Below, piece by piece: positions 3,326-17,748 of a stretch of 64,000 nucleotides of DNA. Under the pieces are notes generated by a model. The model was given only the letters and a program-made list of their open reading frames with translations. It was not told where the DNA came from and made no database searches. Both the position numbers and the translations under genes were made by a program. The stretch comes from Flavobacteriales bacterium. GTDB taxonomy: Bacteria; Bacteroidota; Bacteroidia; Flavobacteriales; UBA7430. Location of the stretch: assembly GCA_965662265.1 (NCBI GenBank), contig CBFIGX010000005.1, positions 79,544 to 143,543 on the forward strand, in the 5' to 3' direction. The stretch's first letter is position 1, and every line of letters begins with the position of its first letter.

Positions 3326-4013
3326 AATATCACCTAAAAATGCACACGTTATAAGTCTTAACCCAGAACTTAAAAATTTAGGTTATGCAGACGGCCAGCA
3401 CATTAATGGGCCACTAAGCTCAGAAGATAAAACCAAAATGATAGAGCGAGCTGCATTGAAGTTTGGAGAATTCTTACATGAACTAGGCTGTGACTGGAAA
3501 AACGACCCTAACTCTAAAGATACACCAACAAGAGTAGCTAAGGCTTACGTTAATGATTTGTGGGCGGGGCGGTATGATAGTTTTCCTAAAATTACCACTT
3601 TTCCTAATGAAGAATACGACGGAATTATTTTTGAAGGCAACATCCCCATTGTTTCAATGTGTTCGCACCACCACCAAACAATTACTGGTAAAGCACACAT
3701 TGCTTACATTCCAAAAATAAATTCCAAAATTATTGGTTTGAGTAAACTCAATAGAATTGTAGAGCACTACGCCAGAAGAGGTGCAATACAAGAAAATTTA
3801 ACCGTTCGTATTCACGATTCAATCCATAGGATTATTGAAGATAATCGGGGTGTTGCAGTGATGATTGAAGCTGGCCATAATTGTGTTCAATGTAGAGGGG
3901 TGAAGCACTTTGGAACCAACATGAAGACCTCAAAGTTATCTGGAGAATTTATGGGAAAAGACAAAACTCGCCATGAGTTTTATGAGTTTATCAAGCAGTC
4001 TATTCAGCATTAA
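3318..4013 (+). CDS. folE: GTP cyclohydrolase I (FolE)
   Basis: Contains ...PIVSMCSHHHQTITGKAHIAYIP..KIIGLSKLNRIVEHYARRGAIQENLT... It overlaps the PTPS stop by 8 nt. Confidence 0.92.
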   Translation: MDKISPKNAHVISLNPELKNLGYADGQHINGPLSSEDKTKMIERAALKFGEFLHELGCDWKNDPNSKDTPTRVAKAYVNDLWAGRYDSFPKITTFPNEEYDGIIFEGNIPIVSMCSHHHQTITGKAHIAYIPKINSKIIGLSKLNRIVEHYARRGAIQENLTVRIHDSIHRIIEDNRGVAVMIEAGHNCVQCRGVKHFGTNMKTSKLSGEFMGKDKTRHEFYEFIKQSIQH

Positions 4014-15238: not shown

Positions 15239-15784
15239 ATGCAACAATTTCTGCTATTCATAGCGCTCATTTTTATGCCAATTCCCTCTTCTAACCCTAT
15301 TACGATATTCGATTTCAAAAACTCTTCTGAACCAGAAAAGTGGTATATTGTCAACGATGATGTTATGGGTGGTGTTTCTACTTCTAAAATAAAAATAAAC
15401 AAGGAAGGGCATGCTGTATTTTCAGGACGTGTATCTACTGCTAACAATGGTGGGTTTGCTTCTGTACGTTACAGATTTGACCCGATATCTACTATTGGTT
15501 GTGCCAAAATATTGTTAAGAGTTAAAGGGGATGAAAAACCTTATCAATTAAGAGTAAAATCAAGTGCATCTGATTACTATTCTTATGTCTGTTCATTTGA
15601 AACATCTAAGGACTGGGAGTTAATAGAAGTTAATTTGAAAGATATGTATCCCAGCTTCCGTGGAATGAAATTACCCATGGGAAATTTTGATGAGACGTCT
15701 ATTGAAGAGCTATCTATATTGATTGGTAACAAGAAAGATGAATCATTTGAGTTATTCATCGATCATATTAAATTAGGAAATTAA
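15239..15784 (+). CDS. CIA30 (complex I intermediate-associated protein 30-like) family protein
   Basis: WYIVNDDVMGGVSTSKIKINKEGHAVFSGRVSTANNGGFASVRYRF is the characteristic CIA30 N-terminal block. Confidence 0.75.
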   Translation: MQQFLLFIALIFMPIPSSNPITIFDFKNSSEPEKWYIVNDDVMGGVSTSKIKINKEGHAVFSGRVSTANNGGFASVRYRFDPISTIGCAKILLRVKGDEKPYQLRVKSSASDYYSYVCSFETSKDWELIEVNLKDMYPSFRGMKLPMGNFDETSIEELSILIGNKKDESFELFIDHIKLGN

Positions 15785-15795
15785 CGTAGAAGTAT

Positions 15796-15824
15796 AAAAA
15801 AGCCACCTTAAAGGTGGCTTTTTT
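15796..15824. terminator. Bidirectional intrinsic terminator hairpin between convergent genes
   Basis: Sequence is aaaaaAGCCACCttaaGGTGGCTttttt. It has a perfect stem flanked by an A-run and a T-run. Confidence 0.8.
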
Positions 15825-15848: not shown

Positions 15849-16760
15849 TTACTTTATATGTTTTTCTACACGACCGTTGCTATATAAGTAAAATAATAAC
15901 TGCCCTGACATATGCTGATGATGCTCTCTTCCCAATATATCAATCATCTTAATCGGACTTACATCCTCATGAACTAATTCTTCGTATAGACCCACATTAT
16001 TCCAGCTTATTGGGTAGCTACAAACTACATTAGCTGATCCTGCAAAGAGCCCTTCTACCACACAAAGTTCTCCAGTAAAAGGCATTTCTAAAGCTTCGGA
16101 TACAATTAATGCCCTTGTTTCACCCATCCCTGGCCCGGTTATAGCATAAACGTTTCCAGCAGATTCTAATGTTTCGGTTGCTATGGTTTCACCCATGGCA
16201 TCTCTTAACATGAGTCCAGCGTATGGAATAGAATAATTATTAAAAGAAGTTTCTATAGTTACAAACAGGGTATCAAAACTTATCTCAGATGATAGGGCTA
16301 TTGGGAGTTGGGCATTTAAACTTATGGAGTCGCAAAAATTAAAACATTCAGAGCAACACTGACCATCAAGCTCTTGCCAGATACCATTACAAGGAATTCC
16401 CATTTCTTCAGCACAATCAATGATTATTTCTACAAACGAACCATTGCTAAGGCATTCTCCTGTTTCACAAGGGTTATTAGGGTTTTCCCAAAAGCCTGCT
16501 TGATAAATTTCTATACCCGAGGTAGACGTGCAAAGTGGATCATTCGTTGAGGTACATTCTCCTGGTGAGTATTCATATATACTAGAGCATTCCGCAAAGC
16601 CATAATTGCTATATGTAACTCCATCGCAACCGCAAACAGGGTTATACTCCATAGTGGCCATGCAGCCTGGAATGAGAACAGCTATACAAGAATCTATAGA
16701 CTGCGCTATCACAGAATGAGTGAGCAAAGACAAAAGGATTGAAAAAAGAACAGATTTCAT
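15849..16760 (-). CDS. Secreted Cys-rich protein with Kazal-like and VWC-like modules and a T9SS C-terminal sorting domain
   Basis: It has a signal peptide and CMATMEYNPVCGCDGVTYSNYGFAEC (Kazal-like PVCGxDGxTYxN). PCETGECLSNGSFVEIIIDCAEEMGIPCNGIWQELDGQCCSEC ends in the G-x-CC-x-x-C pattern of VWC/chordin-type modules. The C-terminal IKMIDILGRE....GQLLFYLYSNGRVEKHIK is a T9SS type-A-like tail. Confidence 0.6.
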   Translation of the reverse strand: MKSVLFSILLSLLTHSVIAQSIDSCIAVLIPGCMATMEYNPVCGCDGVTYSNYGFAECSSIYEYSPGECTSTNDPLCTSTSGIEIYQAGFWENPNNPCETGECLSNGSFVEIIIDCAEEMGIPCNGIWQELDGQCCSECFNFCDSISLNAQLPIALSSEISFDTLFVTIETSFNNYSIPYAGLMLRDAMGETIATETLESAGNVYAITGPGMGETRALIVSEALEMPFTGELCVVEGLFAGSANVVCSYPISWNNVGLYEELVHEDVSPIKMIDILGREHHQHMSGQLLFYLYSNGRVEKHIK

Positions 16761-16941
16761 ACAAATTCAATAATATGTTTAGGTCTAAATCTAGTTAAAA
16801 ATATAGAAGAATGTATACGATTTTAAAAAGATTATACATTTTGAGCTATCATAGAGCTTAATAAGAGATATACTAACCTATTATGGCAAAAAAACAGCAA
16901 CTAAAGTCGCTGTTTATCATTACTTACACATGTTCAAAGTC

Positions 16942-17238
16942 CTAATGATCGTGCTCTTCTCCACAGTGAACTTCGTTAGCGCTTCCAGGCAAAACCATTG
17001 ATGGTAAAGAATCGCCATCAACATCTAAATAAAGAGTATCCTGAATGGTATATCCAGTCTCTTCGATATCGTGTAAAGCATCTTCACAATACTCACCTAA
17101 CTCCATAAGCTCATATTCTGTTCCGTTTATATCTACTACAACATGACATTCAGCACATTCGTCTTCACTACACCCTACAAATAGAAATAATGAGAGAGAG
17201 GCTAAACACACTTTTAAATTTAAAAAATTACGTTTCAT
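16942..17238 (-). CDS. Small lipoprotein with Cys-rich N-terminus and His-rich C-terminal tail (candidate metal-binding protein)
   Basis: The lipobox is LFLFVGC. The mature N-terminus is CSEDECAECHVV and the C-terminus is EVHCGEEHDH*. Confidence 0.55.
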   Translation of the reverse strand: MKRNFLNLKVCLASLSLFLFVGCSEDECAECHVVVDINGTEYELMELGEYCEDALHDIEETGYTIQDTLYLDVDGDSLPSMVLPGSANEVHCGEEHDH

Positions 17239-17289
17239 GATAATTGTTTTTTTTTATTTTTCTGGTGAAATATTTAATTAGGAAATAAA

Positions 17290-17340
17290 GCAACTTAGTT
17301 GCAAACATAAATATTATATTTGTTAACGCAACAATGTTGC
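17290..17340. promoter_or_regulatory. Two copies of the palindrome GCAAC-N3-GTTGC in the divergent promoter region
   Basis: gcaacttagttgc is at 17290-17302 and (c)gcaacaatgttgc(g) at 17328-17340. Their centres are 38 bp apart. They sit between the lipoprotein start (17238) and the Fur-family start (17355). Confidence 0.45.
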
Positions 17341-17354
17341 GCTAAAAGAATTAC

Positions 17355-17735
17355 ATGGGCATCAAAAGAAAAACAAAATCAGTAGACTTCATTCTAAACG
17401 AATTCCAAAAAGACAGAGAGGCCATCTCTGCCACAGATTTGGTACATAGACTAAGTAGTAATTTTAACAAAACAACTGTTTACCGTGTTTTGGAAAAACT
17501 AGAGCAAGACGGCACCTTACACTCCTTTACTGGGAAGAATTCTTCAAAATGGTACGCTAAATGTTATGGATGCAAAGCGGATAATCATATAGATGTGCAT
17601 CCTCATTTTGAATGTAGTGCTTGCGCTCAAGTAGAGTGTTTGGATGTTGAGATTAGCATCCCCACTGTTGCAGACAAGAAGATTAGCAAAGCAGCAGTGC
17701 TATTACAAGGTTTATGTAGCAATTGTCTGCATTAG
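17355..17735 (+). CDS. Fur-family metalloregulator (Zur/Fur-like)
   Basis: ISATDLVHRL....NKTTVYRVLEKLEQDGTLH is a Fur-type winged helix. HPHFECSACAQVECLD and GLCSNC supply the two CxxC pairs of the structural Zn site. Confidence 0.75.
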   Translation: MGIKRKTKSVDFILNEFQKDREAISATDLVHRLSSNFNKTTVYRVLEKLEQDGTLHSFTGKNSSKWYAKCYGCKADNHIDVHPHFECSACAQVECLDVEISIPTVADKKISKAAVLLQGLCSNCLH

Positions 17736-17748
17736 GGTTTTAATGACG

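What the first reader, a model, noticed from the sequence alone, without database searches (positions are those of the whole stretch)
15849..17735. Fur-family regulator with twin GCAAC-N3-GTTGC palindromes, divergent from a His-tailed lipoprotein and a Kazal/VWC-like Cys-rich T9SS protein
The 116-bp divergent region carries two near-identical palindromes: gcaacTTAgttgc at 17290-17302 and cgcaacAATgttgcg at 17327-17341. They are not the classical AT-rich Fur box, which suggests a distinct operator for this 126-aa Fur-family protein. The divergent unit encodes a 98-aa lipoprotein with a CSEDECAECH start and an EVHCGEEHDH end, which is metal-chelating in appearance. About 180 nt downstream is a 303-aa T9SS cargo protein with about 15 Cys in residues 25-143. 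These are arranged as a Kazal-like module (YNPVCGCDGVTYSNYGFAEC) and a segment ending GQCCSEC, like VWC/chordin modules. Both domain types are mostly eukaryotic. A metal-regulated, secreted protease-inhibitor-like protein would be an unusual output for a Fur/Zur regulon.
Basis: partly seen in the sequence, partly recalled or inferred. Interest (0 to 1): 0.55.

Follow-up and report, generated by a model that had tools for sequence, protein, structure and literature searches.

The report
Zinc-type Fur-family repressor with twin operators
The twin palindromes are the conserved operators of a Zur-like (zinc-sensing) Fur-family repressor of marine Bacteroidota, here controlling its own gene and a small Cys/His-rich lipoprotein, while the neighbouring Cys-rich "Kazal-like" protein looks like an unrelated neighbour.

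Summary
GCAACTTAGTTGC (17290-17302) and GCAACAATGTTGC (17328-17340) are the only matches in 64 kb (0.02 expected).

The same pair, usually 38 bp apart, lies upstream of the orthologous 126-aa Fur-family gene in most of 80 genomes (Flavobacteriaceae, Crocinitomicaceae, Saprospiraceae, Balneolaceae). The consensus is TTAATGCAACTnAGTTGCATTAA. Elsewhere the motif precedes zinc-starvation genes: a ZigA/COG0523 chaperone, a ZnuD-like TonB receptor, MerC-like/FolE operons, a metal-free iota-carbonic anhydrase and DUF4625 lipoproteins. The regulator is therefore best read as a Zur-type zinc repressor with its own box sequence.

In the window, operator 1 is fused to the -7 box of the lipoprotein promoter, and operator 2 supplies its -33 TTG (TTG-N19-TATGTTTG). 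That geometry explains the 38-bp spacing.

The 98-aa lipoprotein belongs to a small unannotated family with invariant Cys/His and His/Asp tails. Elsewhere it follows the ZnuD-like receptor in operator-controlled operons. No such receptor lies in this window.

The 303-aa Cys-rich protein is separated from the lipoprotein gene by an intrinsic terminator and has no operator. Its homologues sit in unrelated loci. Its Kazal hit is borderline, VWC is supported only through a homologue, and no T9SS sorting domain is detected. Metal-regulated inhibitor output is not supported.

The parts
17355..17735 (+). 126-aa Fur-family regulator, Zur-like clade of Bacteroidota. Invariant residues are C70, C73, H78, D80, H82, H84, C87, C90, C95, C121 and C124.
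   Evidence: Pfam FUR 33.2 bits. About 280 homologues at 50-60% identity. Alignment A1. The best solved relatives are S. coelicolor Zur (3mwm, 7vo0) and M. tuberculosis Zur/FurB (2o03).
17323..17345 (.). Operator 2, proximal to the regulator gene. Core GCAACAATGTTGC at 17328-17340; perfect 15-bp palindrome at 17327-17341.
   Evidence: PWM score 21.5 bits. Its position, 27 nt before the ATG, is the modal position in orthologous loci. It is invariant in the close relative L081.
17285..17307 (.). Operator 1, distal to the regulator gene and proximal to the lipoprotein promoter. Core GCAACTTAGTTGC at 17290-17302.
   Evidence: PWM score 20.0 bits. Its position, 65 nt before the regulator ATG and 38 bp from operator 2, matches 41 of 60 neighbouring-site spacings in orthologous loci.
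17302..17309 (-). Bacteroidota sigma-A -7 box TATGTTTG of the lipoprotein promoter. Its last G is the first base of operator 1. The inferred TSS is near 17297, inside operator 1.
   Evidence: The fusion TAnnTTTGCAAC is seen at 58 sites in orthologous loci. The -7 box spans -12 to -5 from the TSS in flavobacteria (PMC9723704).
17329..17331 (-). Candidate -33 TTG of the lipoprotein promoter, embedded in operator 2 (TTG-N19-TATGTTTG).
   Evidence: Geometry computed. The TTG-N19-TAnnTTTG spacing rule is my own knowledge of Flavobacterium promoters, so this assignment is an inference.
17315..17322 (+). TATATTTG, 5 nt upstream of operator 2. It is either a full -7 box (TSS then at about 17327, the edge of operator 2) or only the -33 TTG of the ancestral regulator promoter.
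   Evidence: Orthologues have only (T)TTG at this position.
17343..17350 (+). TAAAAGAA, a degenerate remnant at the place where 68 of 79 orthologous loci carry a perfect TAnnTTTG -7 box.
16942..17238 (-). 98-aa lipoprotein. Lipobox ...FVGC23, then SEDE (resembles a Bacteroidota surface-export signal). Conserved residues are C28, C31, H32, C51, H91, C92 and H96.
   Evidence: The AF2 core is confident and has no PDB fold match. No Pfam or NCBIfam family. Export-signal consensus from PMC5080379.
16888..16915 (-). Intrinsic terminator after the lipoprotein gene: AAACAGCGAC-UUUA-GUUGCUGUUU followed by a U-run.
   Evidence: Fold; coordinates. Conserved in relative L081.
15849..16760 (-). 303-aa secreted Cys-rich modular protein, a neighbour that is probably not part of the regulon. 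Layout: signal peptide 1-19, Kazal-like module ~22-69, VWC-like module ~76-140, conserved core 143-253 with no known family, portable C-terminal tail 266-303.
15796..15824 (.). Bidirectional terminator hairpin (A6-GCCACC-TTAAA-GGTGGC-T6) shared by the 303-aa gene and the convergent CIA30-domain gene.

Best explanation
The 126-aa protein is the Bacteroidota version of a Zur-type (zinc-sensing) Fur-family repressor. The two palindromes are its operators.

Each operator is an inverted repeat with the family consensus TTAATGCAACTnAGTTGCATTAA, sized for one dimer. The pair is interlocked with two back-to-back sigma-A promoters.

- Operator 1 begins at the last base of the -7 box (TATGTTTG, minus strand) of the lipoprotein promoter and covers its predicted start site.
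- Operator 2 lies 38 bp away. It supplies the -33 TTG of that same promoter, and it sits in or just after the core of the regulator's own promoter.

With zinc bound, the repressor would occupy both sites and shut off the lipoprotein gene and its own gene. Under zinc limitation both would be derepressed.

The 98-aa product is a small, probably surface-exposed lipoprotein with conserved Cys/His and an acidic/His tail. In other lineages it is co-transcribed right after a ZnuD-like TonB-dependent receptor, so it most likely binds zinc at the cell surface for such a receptor. In this lineage the receptor gene is no longer adjacent.

The 303-aa Cys-rich protein is a separate transcription unit.

Shown: the motif, its conservation and positions, the gene contents of the loci, and the terminator. 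Inferred: binding by this protein, zinc as the effector, repression, and the lipoprotein's function.
For: Motif is non-random and conserved:
- Two exact sites in the window against 0.02 expected.
- In 80 genome loci with orthologues at 50-62% identity, the motif sits at about -27 and -65 from the regulator ATG. Neighbouring sites are 38 bp apart in 41 of 60 cases and 37-39 bp apart in 52 of 60.
- PWM hits of at least 14 bits: 128 within 300 bp upstream of the regulator, against 20 in the remaining ~620 kb.
- The 20 outliers either lie at the regulator's own promoter in loci where its gene is not at the usual coordinate, or precede an ABC ATPase, a DUF4625-like lipoprotein divergent from a TonB receptor, a His-rich lipoprotein, ZigA, the receptor-lipoprotein operon, or MerC.

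Regulon content points to zinc:
- Conserved divergent operon in the orthologous loci: MerC-like (56 loci), GTP cyclohydrolase I (36), CobW/COG0523 (16), TonB receptors (12), DUF4625 (3).
- ZigA scores 559 bits.
- A 158-aa operon member is an iota-carbonic anhydrase, a metal-free enzyme (PDB 7c5x, E 5e-84).
- The receptor that precedes the lipoprotein is closest to ZnuD among solved structures (4rdr, E 2e-24).
- The regulator profile's best solved relatives are Zur proteins.

The lipoprotein belongs to the regulon:
- In every other lineage examined it lies 9-80 nt after the receptor gene (9-27 nt in all but one lineage), next to a Fur-family gene. The motif is upstream of that operon, and once the operon continues into merC-folE.

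Promoter geometry. The -7 box position relative to the TSS comes from PMC9723704.

Close relative: the operator region is nearly invariant in L081, while the lipoprotein 5'UTR has diverged.
Against: - No binding or expression data exist.
- The regulator fails every NCBIfam equivalog cutoff (Zur PRK11639 25.7 bits against 167; a PerR model scores slightly higher at 30.2 bits).
- Its similarity to solved Zur proteins is weak (E ~1e-7). Some canonical Zur ligands are replaced, while extra invariant Cys appear (C70, C73, C95).
- The ZnuD-like receptor scores about equally against heme-receptor models.
- None of the zinc genes lies in this 64-kb window and no receptor is adjacent. The zinc assignment for this genome therefore rests on orthology.
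- The regulator's own promoter in the window is atypical: it lacks the -7 box that 68 of 79 loci carry at -12/-13.
- I could not consult curated regulon databases such as RegPrecise.
Confidence: 0.72

Rival explanations
1. The regulator also controls the 303-aa Kazal/VWC-like secreted protein, either by read-through from the lipoprotein promoter or through an unrecognised site. The regulon's output would then include a metal-regulated protease-inhibitor-like protein.
For: - The gene is on the same strand, 181 nt downstream of the lipoprotein gene, and this order is kept in the close relative.
- Terminators can be leaky.
- A different lineage (L087, L102) has a protein with the same C-terminal tail and a VWC protein beside the lipoprotein gene, though convergent to it.
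- The family carries inhibitor-type modules (Kazal, Kunitz, thyroglobulin-1).
Against: - A 10-bp stem plus U-run terminator lies directly after the lipoprotein gene and is conserved in the relative.
- No PWM hit of at least 10 bits lies anywhere else in the window.
- Three homologues on long contigs sit in unrelated neighbourhoods with no Fur-family gene and no motif.
- None of the 80 orthologous regulator loci encodes a homologue.
Confidence: 0.1
2. The palindromes are this regulator's operators, but the signal sensed is not zinc. It could be iron, manganese, heme or peroxide, making the protein a Fur/Mur/PerR-like regulator.
For: - The best NCBIfam score is to a PerR model (30.2 bits).
- The receptor matches heme/hemoglobin receptor models as well as it matches ZnuD.
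- Extra Cys residues could suit redox sensing.
Against: - The operator-linked genes are hallmark zinc-starvation functions: ZigA/COG0523, a ZnuD-like receptor, FolE together with COG0523, a metal-free iota-carbonic anhydrase, and His-rich lipoproteins.
- No siderophore, ferritin, catalase or peroxidase genes were found next to the sites.
- The top solved relatives are Zur proteins.
Confidence: 0.15
3. The palindromes are chance hairpins or terminator-like elements with no regulatory role.
For: The consensus scan flagged 17290-17302 as terminator-like on the minus strand (5-bp stem, 3-nt loop, T-rich tail).
Against: - The stem is too short for a terminator, and it lies upstream of both genes.
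- 0 of 100 shuffles gave two sites.
- The sequence and its position are conserved across families and orders, while the flanks diverge.
Confidence: 0.02

Closest known systems
Zur (zinc uptake regulator) of the Fur family, e.g. S. coelicolor Zur (PDB 3mwm), M. tuberculosis Zur/FurB (2o03), E. coli Zur (4mtd)
   Same: - Winged-helix plus dimerisation domain, with a structural Cys4 site (C87/C90/C121/C124) and an H-x-H cluster before the first CxxC.
- Palindromic operator overlapping the promoters of its own gene and of zinc-acquisition genes.
- Regulon content: COG0523/ZigA, a ZnuD-like receptor, and zinc-sparing enzymes.
   Different: - Only weak sequence similarity (E ~1e-7), and it fails the NCBIfam Zur cutoff.
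- It is short (126 aa).
- It has an extra invariant CxxC (C70, C73) and C95.
- The operator core is GCAACTnAGTTGC, not the TGTTATA/TCGTAAT-type AT-rich boxes.
- In most orthologues the -7 box sits 12-13 nt before the ATG, which predicts a leaderless mRNA.
Classical Fur box (7-1-7 inverted repeat TGATAAT-n-ATTATCA)
   Same: An inverted repeat with a single central base and AT-rich flanks. It is sized for one dimer and overlaps core promoter elements.
   Different: The core hexamer is GC-containing (GCAACT) and shares no sequence with the Fur, PerR or Zur boxes of Bacillus or Enterobacteria.
Surface lipoprotein partners of Bacteroidota TonB-dependent transporters (SusD, BtuG, HmuY-type)
   Same: - The gene lies immediately after a TonB-dependent receptor gene in the same regulated operon.
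- It has a lipobox followed by an acidic surface-export-like signal (C-S-E-D-E).
   Different: - It is far smaller (about 75 mature residues) and has no sequence or fold match.
- The presumed ligand is a metal ion.
- In the window lineage the receptor gene is not adjacent.
- No experimental data exist.
Kazal / VWC / Kunitz / thyroglobulin-1 Cys-rich modules
   Same: - The 303-aa protein has a PVCGCDGVTYSN core typical of Kazal domains.
- It has a segment 48% identical to a homologue whose aligned region passes the Pfam VWC cutoff.
- Longer family members carry confident Kunitz and thyroglobulin-1 domains.
   Different: - The window protein's Kazal hit covers only 17 of 49 profile positions at the cutoff.
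- Its Cys pattern is non-canonical.
- There is no direct VWC hit.
- The conserved core (143-253) and the C-terminal tail have no known family.

Membership tests
Fur family (PF01475) | Profile match above the curated cutoff, covering the winged-helix and dimerisation domains | tested here: met
   33.2 bits against a cutoff of 23.1, residues 6-96. Precomputed PF01475 on nearly all homologues.
Fur family (PF01475) | Structural Zn site made of two CxxC pairs in the C-terminal domain | tested here: met
   C87-x2-C90 and C121-x2-C124 are invariant in 24 sequences. They align to C90/C93 and C130/C133 of S. coelicolor Zur.
Zur subfamily | Sequence-level equivalog assignment | tested here: not met
   NCBIfam Zur PRK11639 scores 25.7 bits against a cutoff of 167. 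A PerR model scores 30.2 against 200. Among solved structures the top three are Zur proteins, but only at E 2e-7 to 2e-6.
Zur subfamily | The operator precedes zinc-acquisition and zinc-sparing genes | tested here: met
   Tested in orthologous loci, not in this window. Sites precede ZigA, a ZnuD-like receptor, MerC-FolE-COG0523 operons, an iota-carbonic anhydrase and DUF4625 lipoproteins.
Zur subfamily | Zn(II)-dependent DNA binding and repression | not testable with these tools
   Needs EMSA or footprinting with Zn and with TPEN, and expression analysis.
Classical Fur/Zur box | AT-rich consensus sequence (e.g. TGATAAT-n-ATTATCA, TCGTAAT-n-ATTACGA, TGTTATA-n-TATAACA) | tested here: not met
   The consensus from 118 sites is TTAATGCAACTnAGTTGCATTAA. 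Only the inverted-repeat geometry is shared. The comparison consensus sequences come from my own knowledge.
Kazal domain (PF00050/PF07648) | Profile match above cutoff over the six-Cys domain | tested here: inconclusive
   Kazal_1 scores 21.9 bits against a cutoff of 21, but only residues 36-52 match profile positions 10-26 of 49. Kazal_2 scores 16.2, below its cutoff of 22.8. More distant relatives have confident multi-Kazal hits.
VWC domain (PF00093) | Profile match above cutoff | tested here: not met
   Residues 74-145 give no hit at E<=10. Homologue P0172 (48% identical over query residues 87-253) scores 31.9 bits against a cutoff of 27.6 on the aligned segment. The support is therefore only transitive.
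T9SS C-terminal sorting domain (PF18962 / TIGR04183) | Profile match at the C-terminus | tested here: not met
   No hit for the full protein, for residues 145-303 or for the last 50 residues, even at E<=10. A conserved, portable ~45-aa tail does exist, but it is shorter than a canonical sorting domain.
Bacterial lipoprotein (98-aa protein) | Signal peptide ending in a lipobox Cys | tested here: met
   ...LFLFVGC23. Homologues have LAAC, LVSC, LSSC or MTSC at the aligned position. The following S-E-D-E resembles the SDDDD/SDDFE surface-export signals (PMC5080379). Surface exposure itself is not testable here.
TonB-receptor partner lipoprotein | Encoded directly beside its receptor gene | tested here: not met
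   In this window there is no ZnuD-like receptor within 64 kb. The feature is met in all other lineages examined.

The most novel reading that the evidence does not exclude
The 98-aa protein may found an undescribed family of small, surface-exposed, zinc-capturing lipoproteins that serve ZnuD-like TonB-dependent receptors in marine Bacteroidota. This would be a metal-ion counterpart of BtuG or HmuY.

It would be controlled by a Bacteroidota-specific Zur, which has a Cys-rich sensing site. That Zur's twin operators are built into the -33 and -7/+1 elements of the target promoter.
Probability: 0.35. Interest if true: 0.6.

Novelty: new member of a known kind. Interest (0 to 1): 0.4.

Why it matters
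Zinc homeostasis in Bacteroidota, and especially in abundant marine Flavobacteriales, is poorly described. I found no paper in the searchable library that gives a Zur box for this phylum.

- A defined operator (TTAATGCAACTnAGTTGCATTAA) allows zinc regulons to be read directly from genomes and metagenomes.
- It already points to a zinc-sparing set that includes a metal-free iota-carbonic anhydrase.
- It also points to an unannotated Cys/His lipoprotein family linked to ZnuD-like receptors.

The mechanism itself, a Fur-family repressor on palindromes that overlap divergent promoters, is conventional. The more eye-catching idea of a metal-regulated protease inhibitor does not hold up.

Tried and rejected
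- **Link between the 303-aa protein and the regulon.** BLAST and tblastn against 80 orthologous loci found nothing. Three homologue contexts and PWM scans were negative.
- **T9SS sorting domain and VWC in the window protein.** Permissive Pfam and NCBIfam scans found neither.
- **AF2 model of the 303-aa protein.** Mean pLDDT was 55.8, too poor to use, so I ran no fold search on it.
- **Fold search of the lipoprotein model.** The core is confident, but the best PDB match has E 1.6. Pfam on 21 members and on distant members found no family.
- **Terminator resemblance to the operator.** The terminator stem contains GCAAC...GTCGC in the window. This is a single substitution, because the relative has GCGAC, so it is coincidental.
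- **Literature.** Five full-text searches for a Bacteroidota or Flavobacterium Zur or Zur box found nothing relevant. The P. gingivalis 'PgFur' papers concern a different 171-aa protein.
- **Other window scans.** Rfam and tRNA scans were empty. No ZnuD-like receptor is in the window.
- **Organism name.** The exact-sequence cluster look-up did not give one.
Full report
**1. The observation**

The region contains three ORFs, as described:
- a 126-aa ORF at 17355-17735 (+);
- a divergent 98-aa ORF at 16942-17238 (-);
- a 303-aa ORF at 15849-16760 (-), 181 nt further on.

The 116-bp divergent region carries GCAACTTAGTTGC (17290-17302) and CGCAACAATGTTGCG (17327-17341). GCAAC-N3-GTTGC occurs only at these two places in 64 kb. 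Dinucleotide-preserving shuffles expect 0.02, and none of 100 gave two. Allowing one mismatch adds nothing.

**2. The regulator and its operator**

The 126-aa protein passes the Pfam FUR threshold (33.2 bits against 23.1). It reaches no NCBIfam equivalog cutoff: PerR 30.2 against 200, Zur 25.7 against 167.

It belongs to a large clade, with about 280 clusters at 50-60% identity. Named members come from Winogradskyella, Formosa, Zobellia, Tenacibaculum, Polaribacter and Dokdonia. Invariant residues are C70, C73, H78, D80, H82, H84, C87, C90, C95, C121 and C124.

A profile of the clade finds S. coelicolor Zur (3mwm, 7vo0) and M. tuberculosis Zur/FurB (2o03) as the best solved relatives (E 2e-7 to 2e-6). 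These rank ahead of Fur proteins and E. coli Zur.

I fetched 80 genome loci encoding orthologues. They include Crocinitomicaceae, Saprospiraceae, Cytophagales and Balneolaceae.

- In most loci the same palindrome lies upstream of the regulator gene, typically at -27 and -65.
- Neighbouring sites are 38 bp apart in 41 of 60 cases, and 37-39 bp apart in 52 of 60.
- 118 sites give the consensus TTAATGCAACTnAGTTGCATTAA.

The operator therefore has the usual Fur-family geometry, an inverted repeat around one central base with AT-rich flanks. Its core sequence is unlike the Fur, PerR or Zur boxes I know from other phyla. That comparison rests on my own knowledge.

A PWM scan gives 128 hits of at least 14 bits within 300 bp upstream of the regulator, and 20 in the remaining ~620 kb.

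**3. What the regulon is**

The conserved divergent neighbours in the 80 loci are:
- a MerC-like membrane protein (56 loci);
- GTP cyclohydrolase I (36 loci);
- CobW/COG0523 (16 loci);
- an ABC ATPase, and ABC-2/DUF3526 permeases;
- TonB-dependent receptors (12 loci);
- DUF4625 lipoproteins (3 loci).

A 158-aa operon member with an HHSS motif is an iota-carbonic anhydrase (7c5x, E 5e-84). This is the metal-free class of carbonic anhydrase.

The 20 'outlier' PWM hits are of two kinds. Some lie at the regulator's own promoter in loci where its gene is not at the usual coordinate. The others precede an ABC ATPase, a DUF4625-like lipoprotein divergent from a receptor, a His-rich lipoprotein, ZigA, the receptor-lipoprotein operon, or MerC. 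ZigA scores 559 bits against NCBIfam, just under the cutoff of 600.

This is the gene content expected of a zinc-starvation (Zur) regulon. From my own knowledge, B. subtilis ZagA (a COG0523 protein) sustains the Zn-dependent FolE under zinc limitation. That fits the FolE-COG0523 linkage seen here. I conclude that the regulator is a Zur-type sensor. Zinc as the effector is inferred, not shown.

**4. Promoter anatomy in the window**

On the minus strand the sequence reads TTG(17331-17329)-N19-TATGTTTG(17309-17302), followed directly by CAACTAAGTTGC.

- The -7 box of the lipoprotein promoter is fused to operator 1. The same fusion, TAnnTTTGCAAC, occurs at 58 sites in orthologous loci.
- The candidate -33 TTG is the half-site of operator 2.
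- In flavobacteria the -7 box spans -12 to -5 from the start site (PMC9723704). The start site would then be near 17297, inside operator 1.

Two bound dimers would cover both the -33 element and the -7/+1 region. This geometry also explains why the spacing is held at 38 bp.

The regulator's own promoter differs from the family norm.
- 68 of 79 orthologous loci have a perfect TAnnTTTG 12-13 nt before the ATG, which implies a leaderless mRNA. In 48 cases the proximal operator ends 2 nt before that box and sits in the -33/-7 spacer.
- The window keeps the geometry (TTG-N20-TAAAAGAA-TTAC-ATG), but the -7 box is degenerate.
- The window also has a full TATATTTG at 17315-17322, just upstream of operator 2.

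Which promoter is used remains unresolved. Operator 2 overlaps either one.

Against the 91%-identical relative L081, the stretch from operator 1 to the ATG is almost invariant. The lipoprotein 5'UTR has diverged and carries an 11-bp indel.

**5. The 98-aa lipoprotein**

It has a lipobox (FVGC23) followed by S-E-D-E. This resembles the SDDDD/SDDFE surface-export signals of Bacteroidota (PMC5080379).

The family is small. There are 28 clusters at 90% identity. A profile search finds 50 representatives among 1.84 billion.

All members keep C-x-E/D-C-H, (I/L)GE(F/Y)C and (V/I)HC(G/E)(E/D)H. Many add His/Asp-rich stretches, for example HDHDDDHDDDHND.

No Pfam or NCBIfam family matches. The AF2 core is confident (pLDDT above 90 for about residues 30-90) but has no PDB fold match.

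In every other lineage examined, the gene lies 9-80 nt after a 723-754-aa TonB-dependent receptor gene; the gap is 9-27 nt in all but one lineage. These loci are L055, L087-L096 and L102-L107. The closest solved relative of that receptor is ZnuD (4rdr, E 2e-24).
- The receptor-lipoprotein pair sits next to a Fur-family gene.
- The operator lies upstream of the operon.
- In L106 the operon continues into merC and folE.

The lipoprotein is therefore a conserved regulon member and a likely partner of a ZnuD-like receptor. In the window lineage the receptor is absent from the locus and from the whole 64 kb.

**6. The 303-aa protein**

It has a signal peptide and 15 Cys between residues 25 and 143.

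- **Kazal:** Kazal_1 scores 21.9 bits against a cutoff of 21, but only 17 residues match. Kazal_2 is below its cutoff.
- **VWC:** there is no direct hit even at E<=10. Residues 87-140 align with the region of homologue P0172 that scores 31.9 bits against a cutoff of 27.6; the full alignment, query residues 87-253, is 48% identical.
- **Family:** about 74 clusters from marine metagenomes. Longer members add thyroglobulin-1 plus Kunitz, PKD or more Kazal modules in front of a conserved core (143-253, no family) and a conserved ~45-aa tail.
- **Tail:** it recurs on proteins of different architecture, which suggests a sorting tag. It gives no Por_Secre_tail or TIGR04183 hit, so 'T9SS cargo' is unproven.

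Link to the regulon:
- A 10-bp stem plus U-run terminator follows the lipoprotein gene (16915-16888, minus strand). It is conserved in the relative.
- No operator-like site precedes the 303-aa gene.
- Three homologues on long contigs sit in unrelated contexts, without the regulator or the motif.

The proposal that this protein is a metal-regulated output is not supported. Read-through cannot be excluded.

**7. Comparison with what is known, and novelty**

The system works like Zur. It is a Fur-family member by test. Membership of the Zur subfamily is supported by regulon content and by the nearest solved structures, but not by sequence cutoffs.

Five full-text searches found no description of a Bacteroidota Zur box. 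I could not check curated regulon databases.

I file it as a new member of a known kind: a phylum-specific Zur and its box, with a conventional mechanism. The novel elements are modest:
- the box sequence;
- the operator-promoter interlock;
- the extra invariant Cys in the sensor;
- the unannotated lipoprotein family.

**8. Verdict**

The feature is real and conserved, and it is functionally interpretable. Interest is moderate (0.4).

Noticed in passing
L053:2695-3171 (-), and 9 other orthologous loci (cluster 6): A 158-aa protein with an HHSS motif sits in the operator-controlled merC-folE operon. It is an iota-carbonic anhydrase, the metal-free class (PDB 7c5x, E 5e-84). This suggests zinc-sparing replacement of a Zn-dependent carbonic anhydrase in Bacteroidota.
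   Followed up: partly
Upstream of the regulator gene (around 3989-4000) in most of L001-L080: 68 of 79 orthologous regulator genes have a perfect TAnnTTTG -7 box starting 12-13 nt before the ATG. This predicts leaderless mRNAs, which are a minority class (about 5.5%) in F. psychrophilum (PMC9723704). The window lineage has lost this box.
   Followed up: partly
window 15849-15962 (residues 266-303 of the 303-aa protein); also L087:4353-4451: A ~45-aa C-terminal tail (..MIDILGRE..H..G..LFYIY.NG.V.K.IK) is shared by many marine Bacteroidota Cys-rich proteins of different architecture. No T9SS sorting-domain profile recognises it. It may be a short variant sorting tag.
   Followed up: partly
P0161, P0168, P0170-P0172 (homologues): A second, different conserved C-terminal module (..GNAYLPDWDFNGIGDLERGYGYLIKV..NYNIC.) ends other Kazal/VWC-type proteins of the same family.
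   Followed up: no
L081:6358-7402, compared with window 17736-17748: The 91%-identical relative has three extra small genes between the regulator gene and mnmE: 73 aa, 199 aa with Por_Secre_tail, and 53 aa. In the window, mnmE is directly convergent on the regulator gene.
   Followed up: no
L087:4347-6686 and L102:3847-6150: In another lineage the lipoprotein gene is followed by two convergent genes. One encodes a ~320-aa protein with the same C-terminal tail. The other encodes a 430-439-aa Dioxygenase_C+VWC protein. This is a second, loose co-occurrence of Cys-rich secreted proteins with this locus.
   Followed up: no
window 15796-15824: A perfect bidirectional terminator (A6-GCCACC-TTAAA-GGTGGC-T6) lies between the CIA30-domain gene (15239-15784, +) and the 303-aa gene.
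   Followed up: yes
P0039 and P0071: Formosa sediminum encodes two paralogues of this regulator on the same 3.93-Mb chromosome.
   Followed up: no
L048:7875-8285 (-) and L048:4448-5377 (-): In a Saprospiraceae MAG, operator sites also precede two genes. One encodes a 136-aa His-rich lipoprotein with no Pfam family. The other encodes a DUF4625-like lipoprotein (not scanned against Pfam) and is divergent from a TonB receptor gene. These are further candidate zinc-binding surface proteins.
   Followed up: partly
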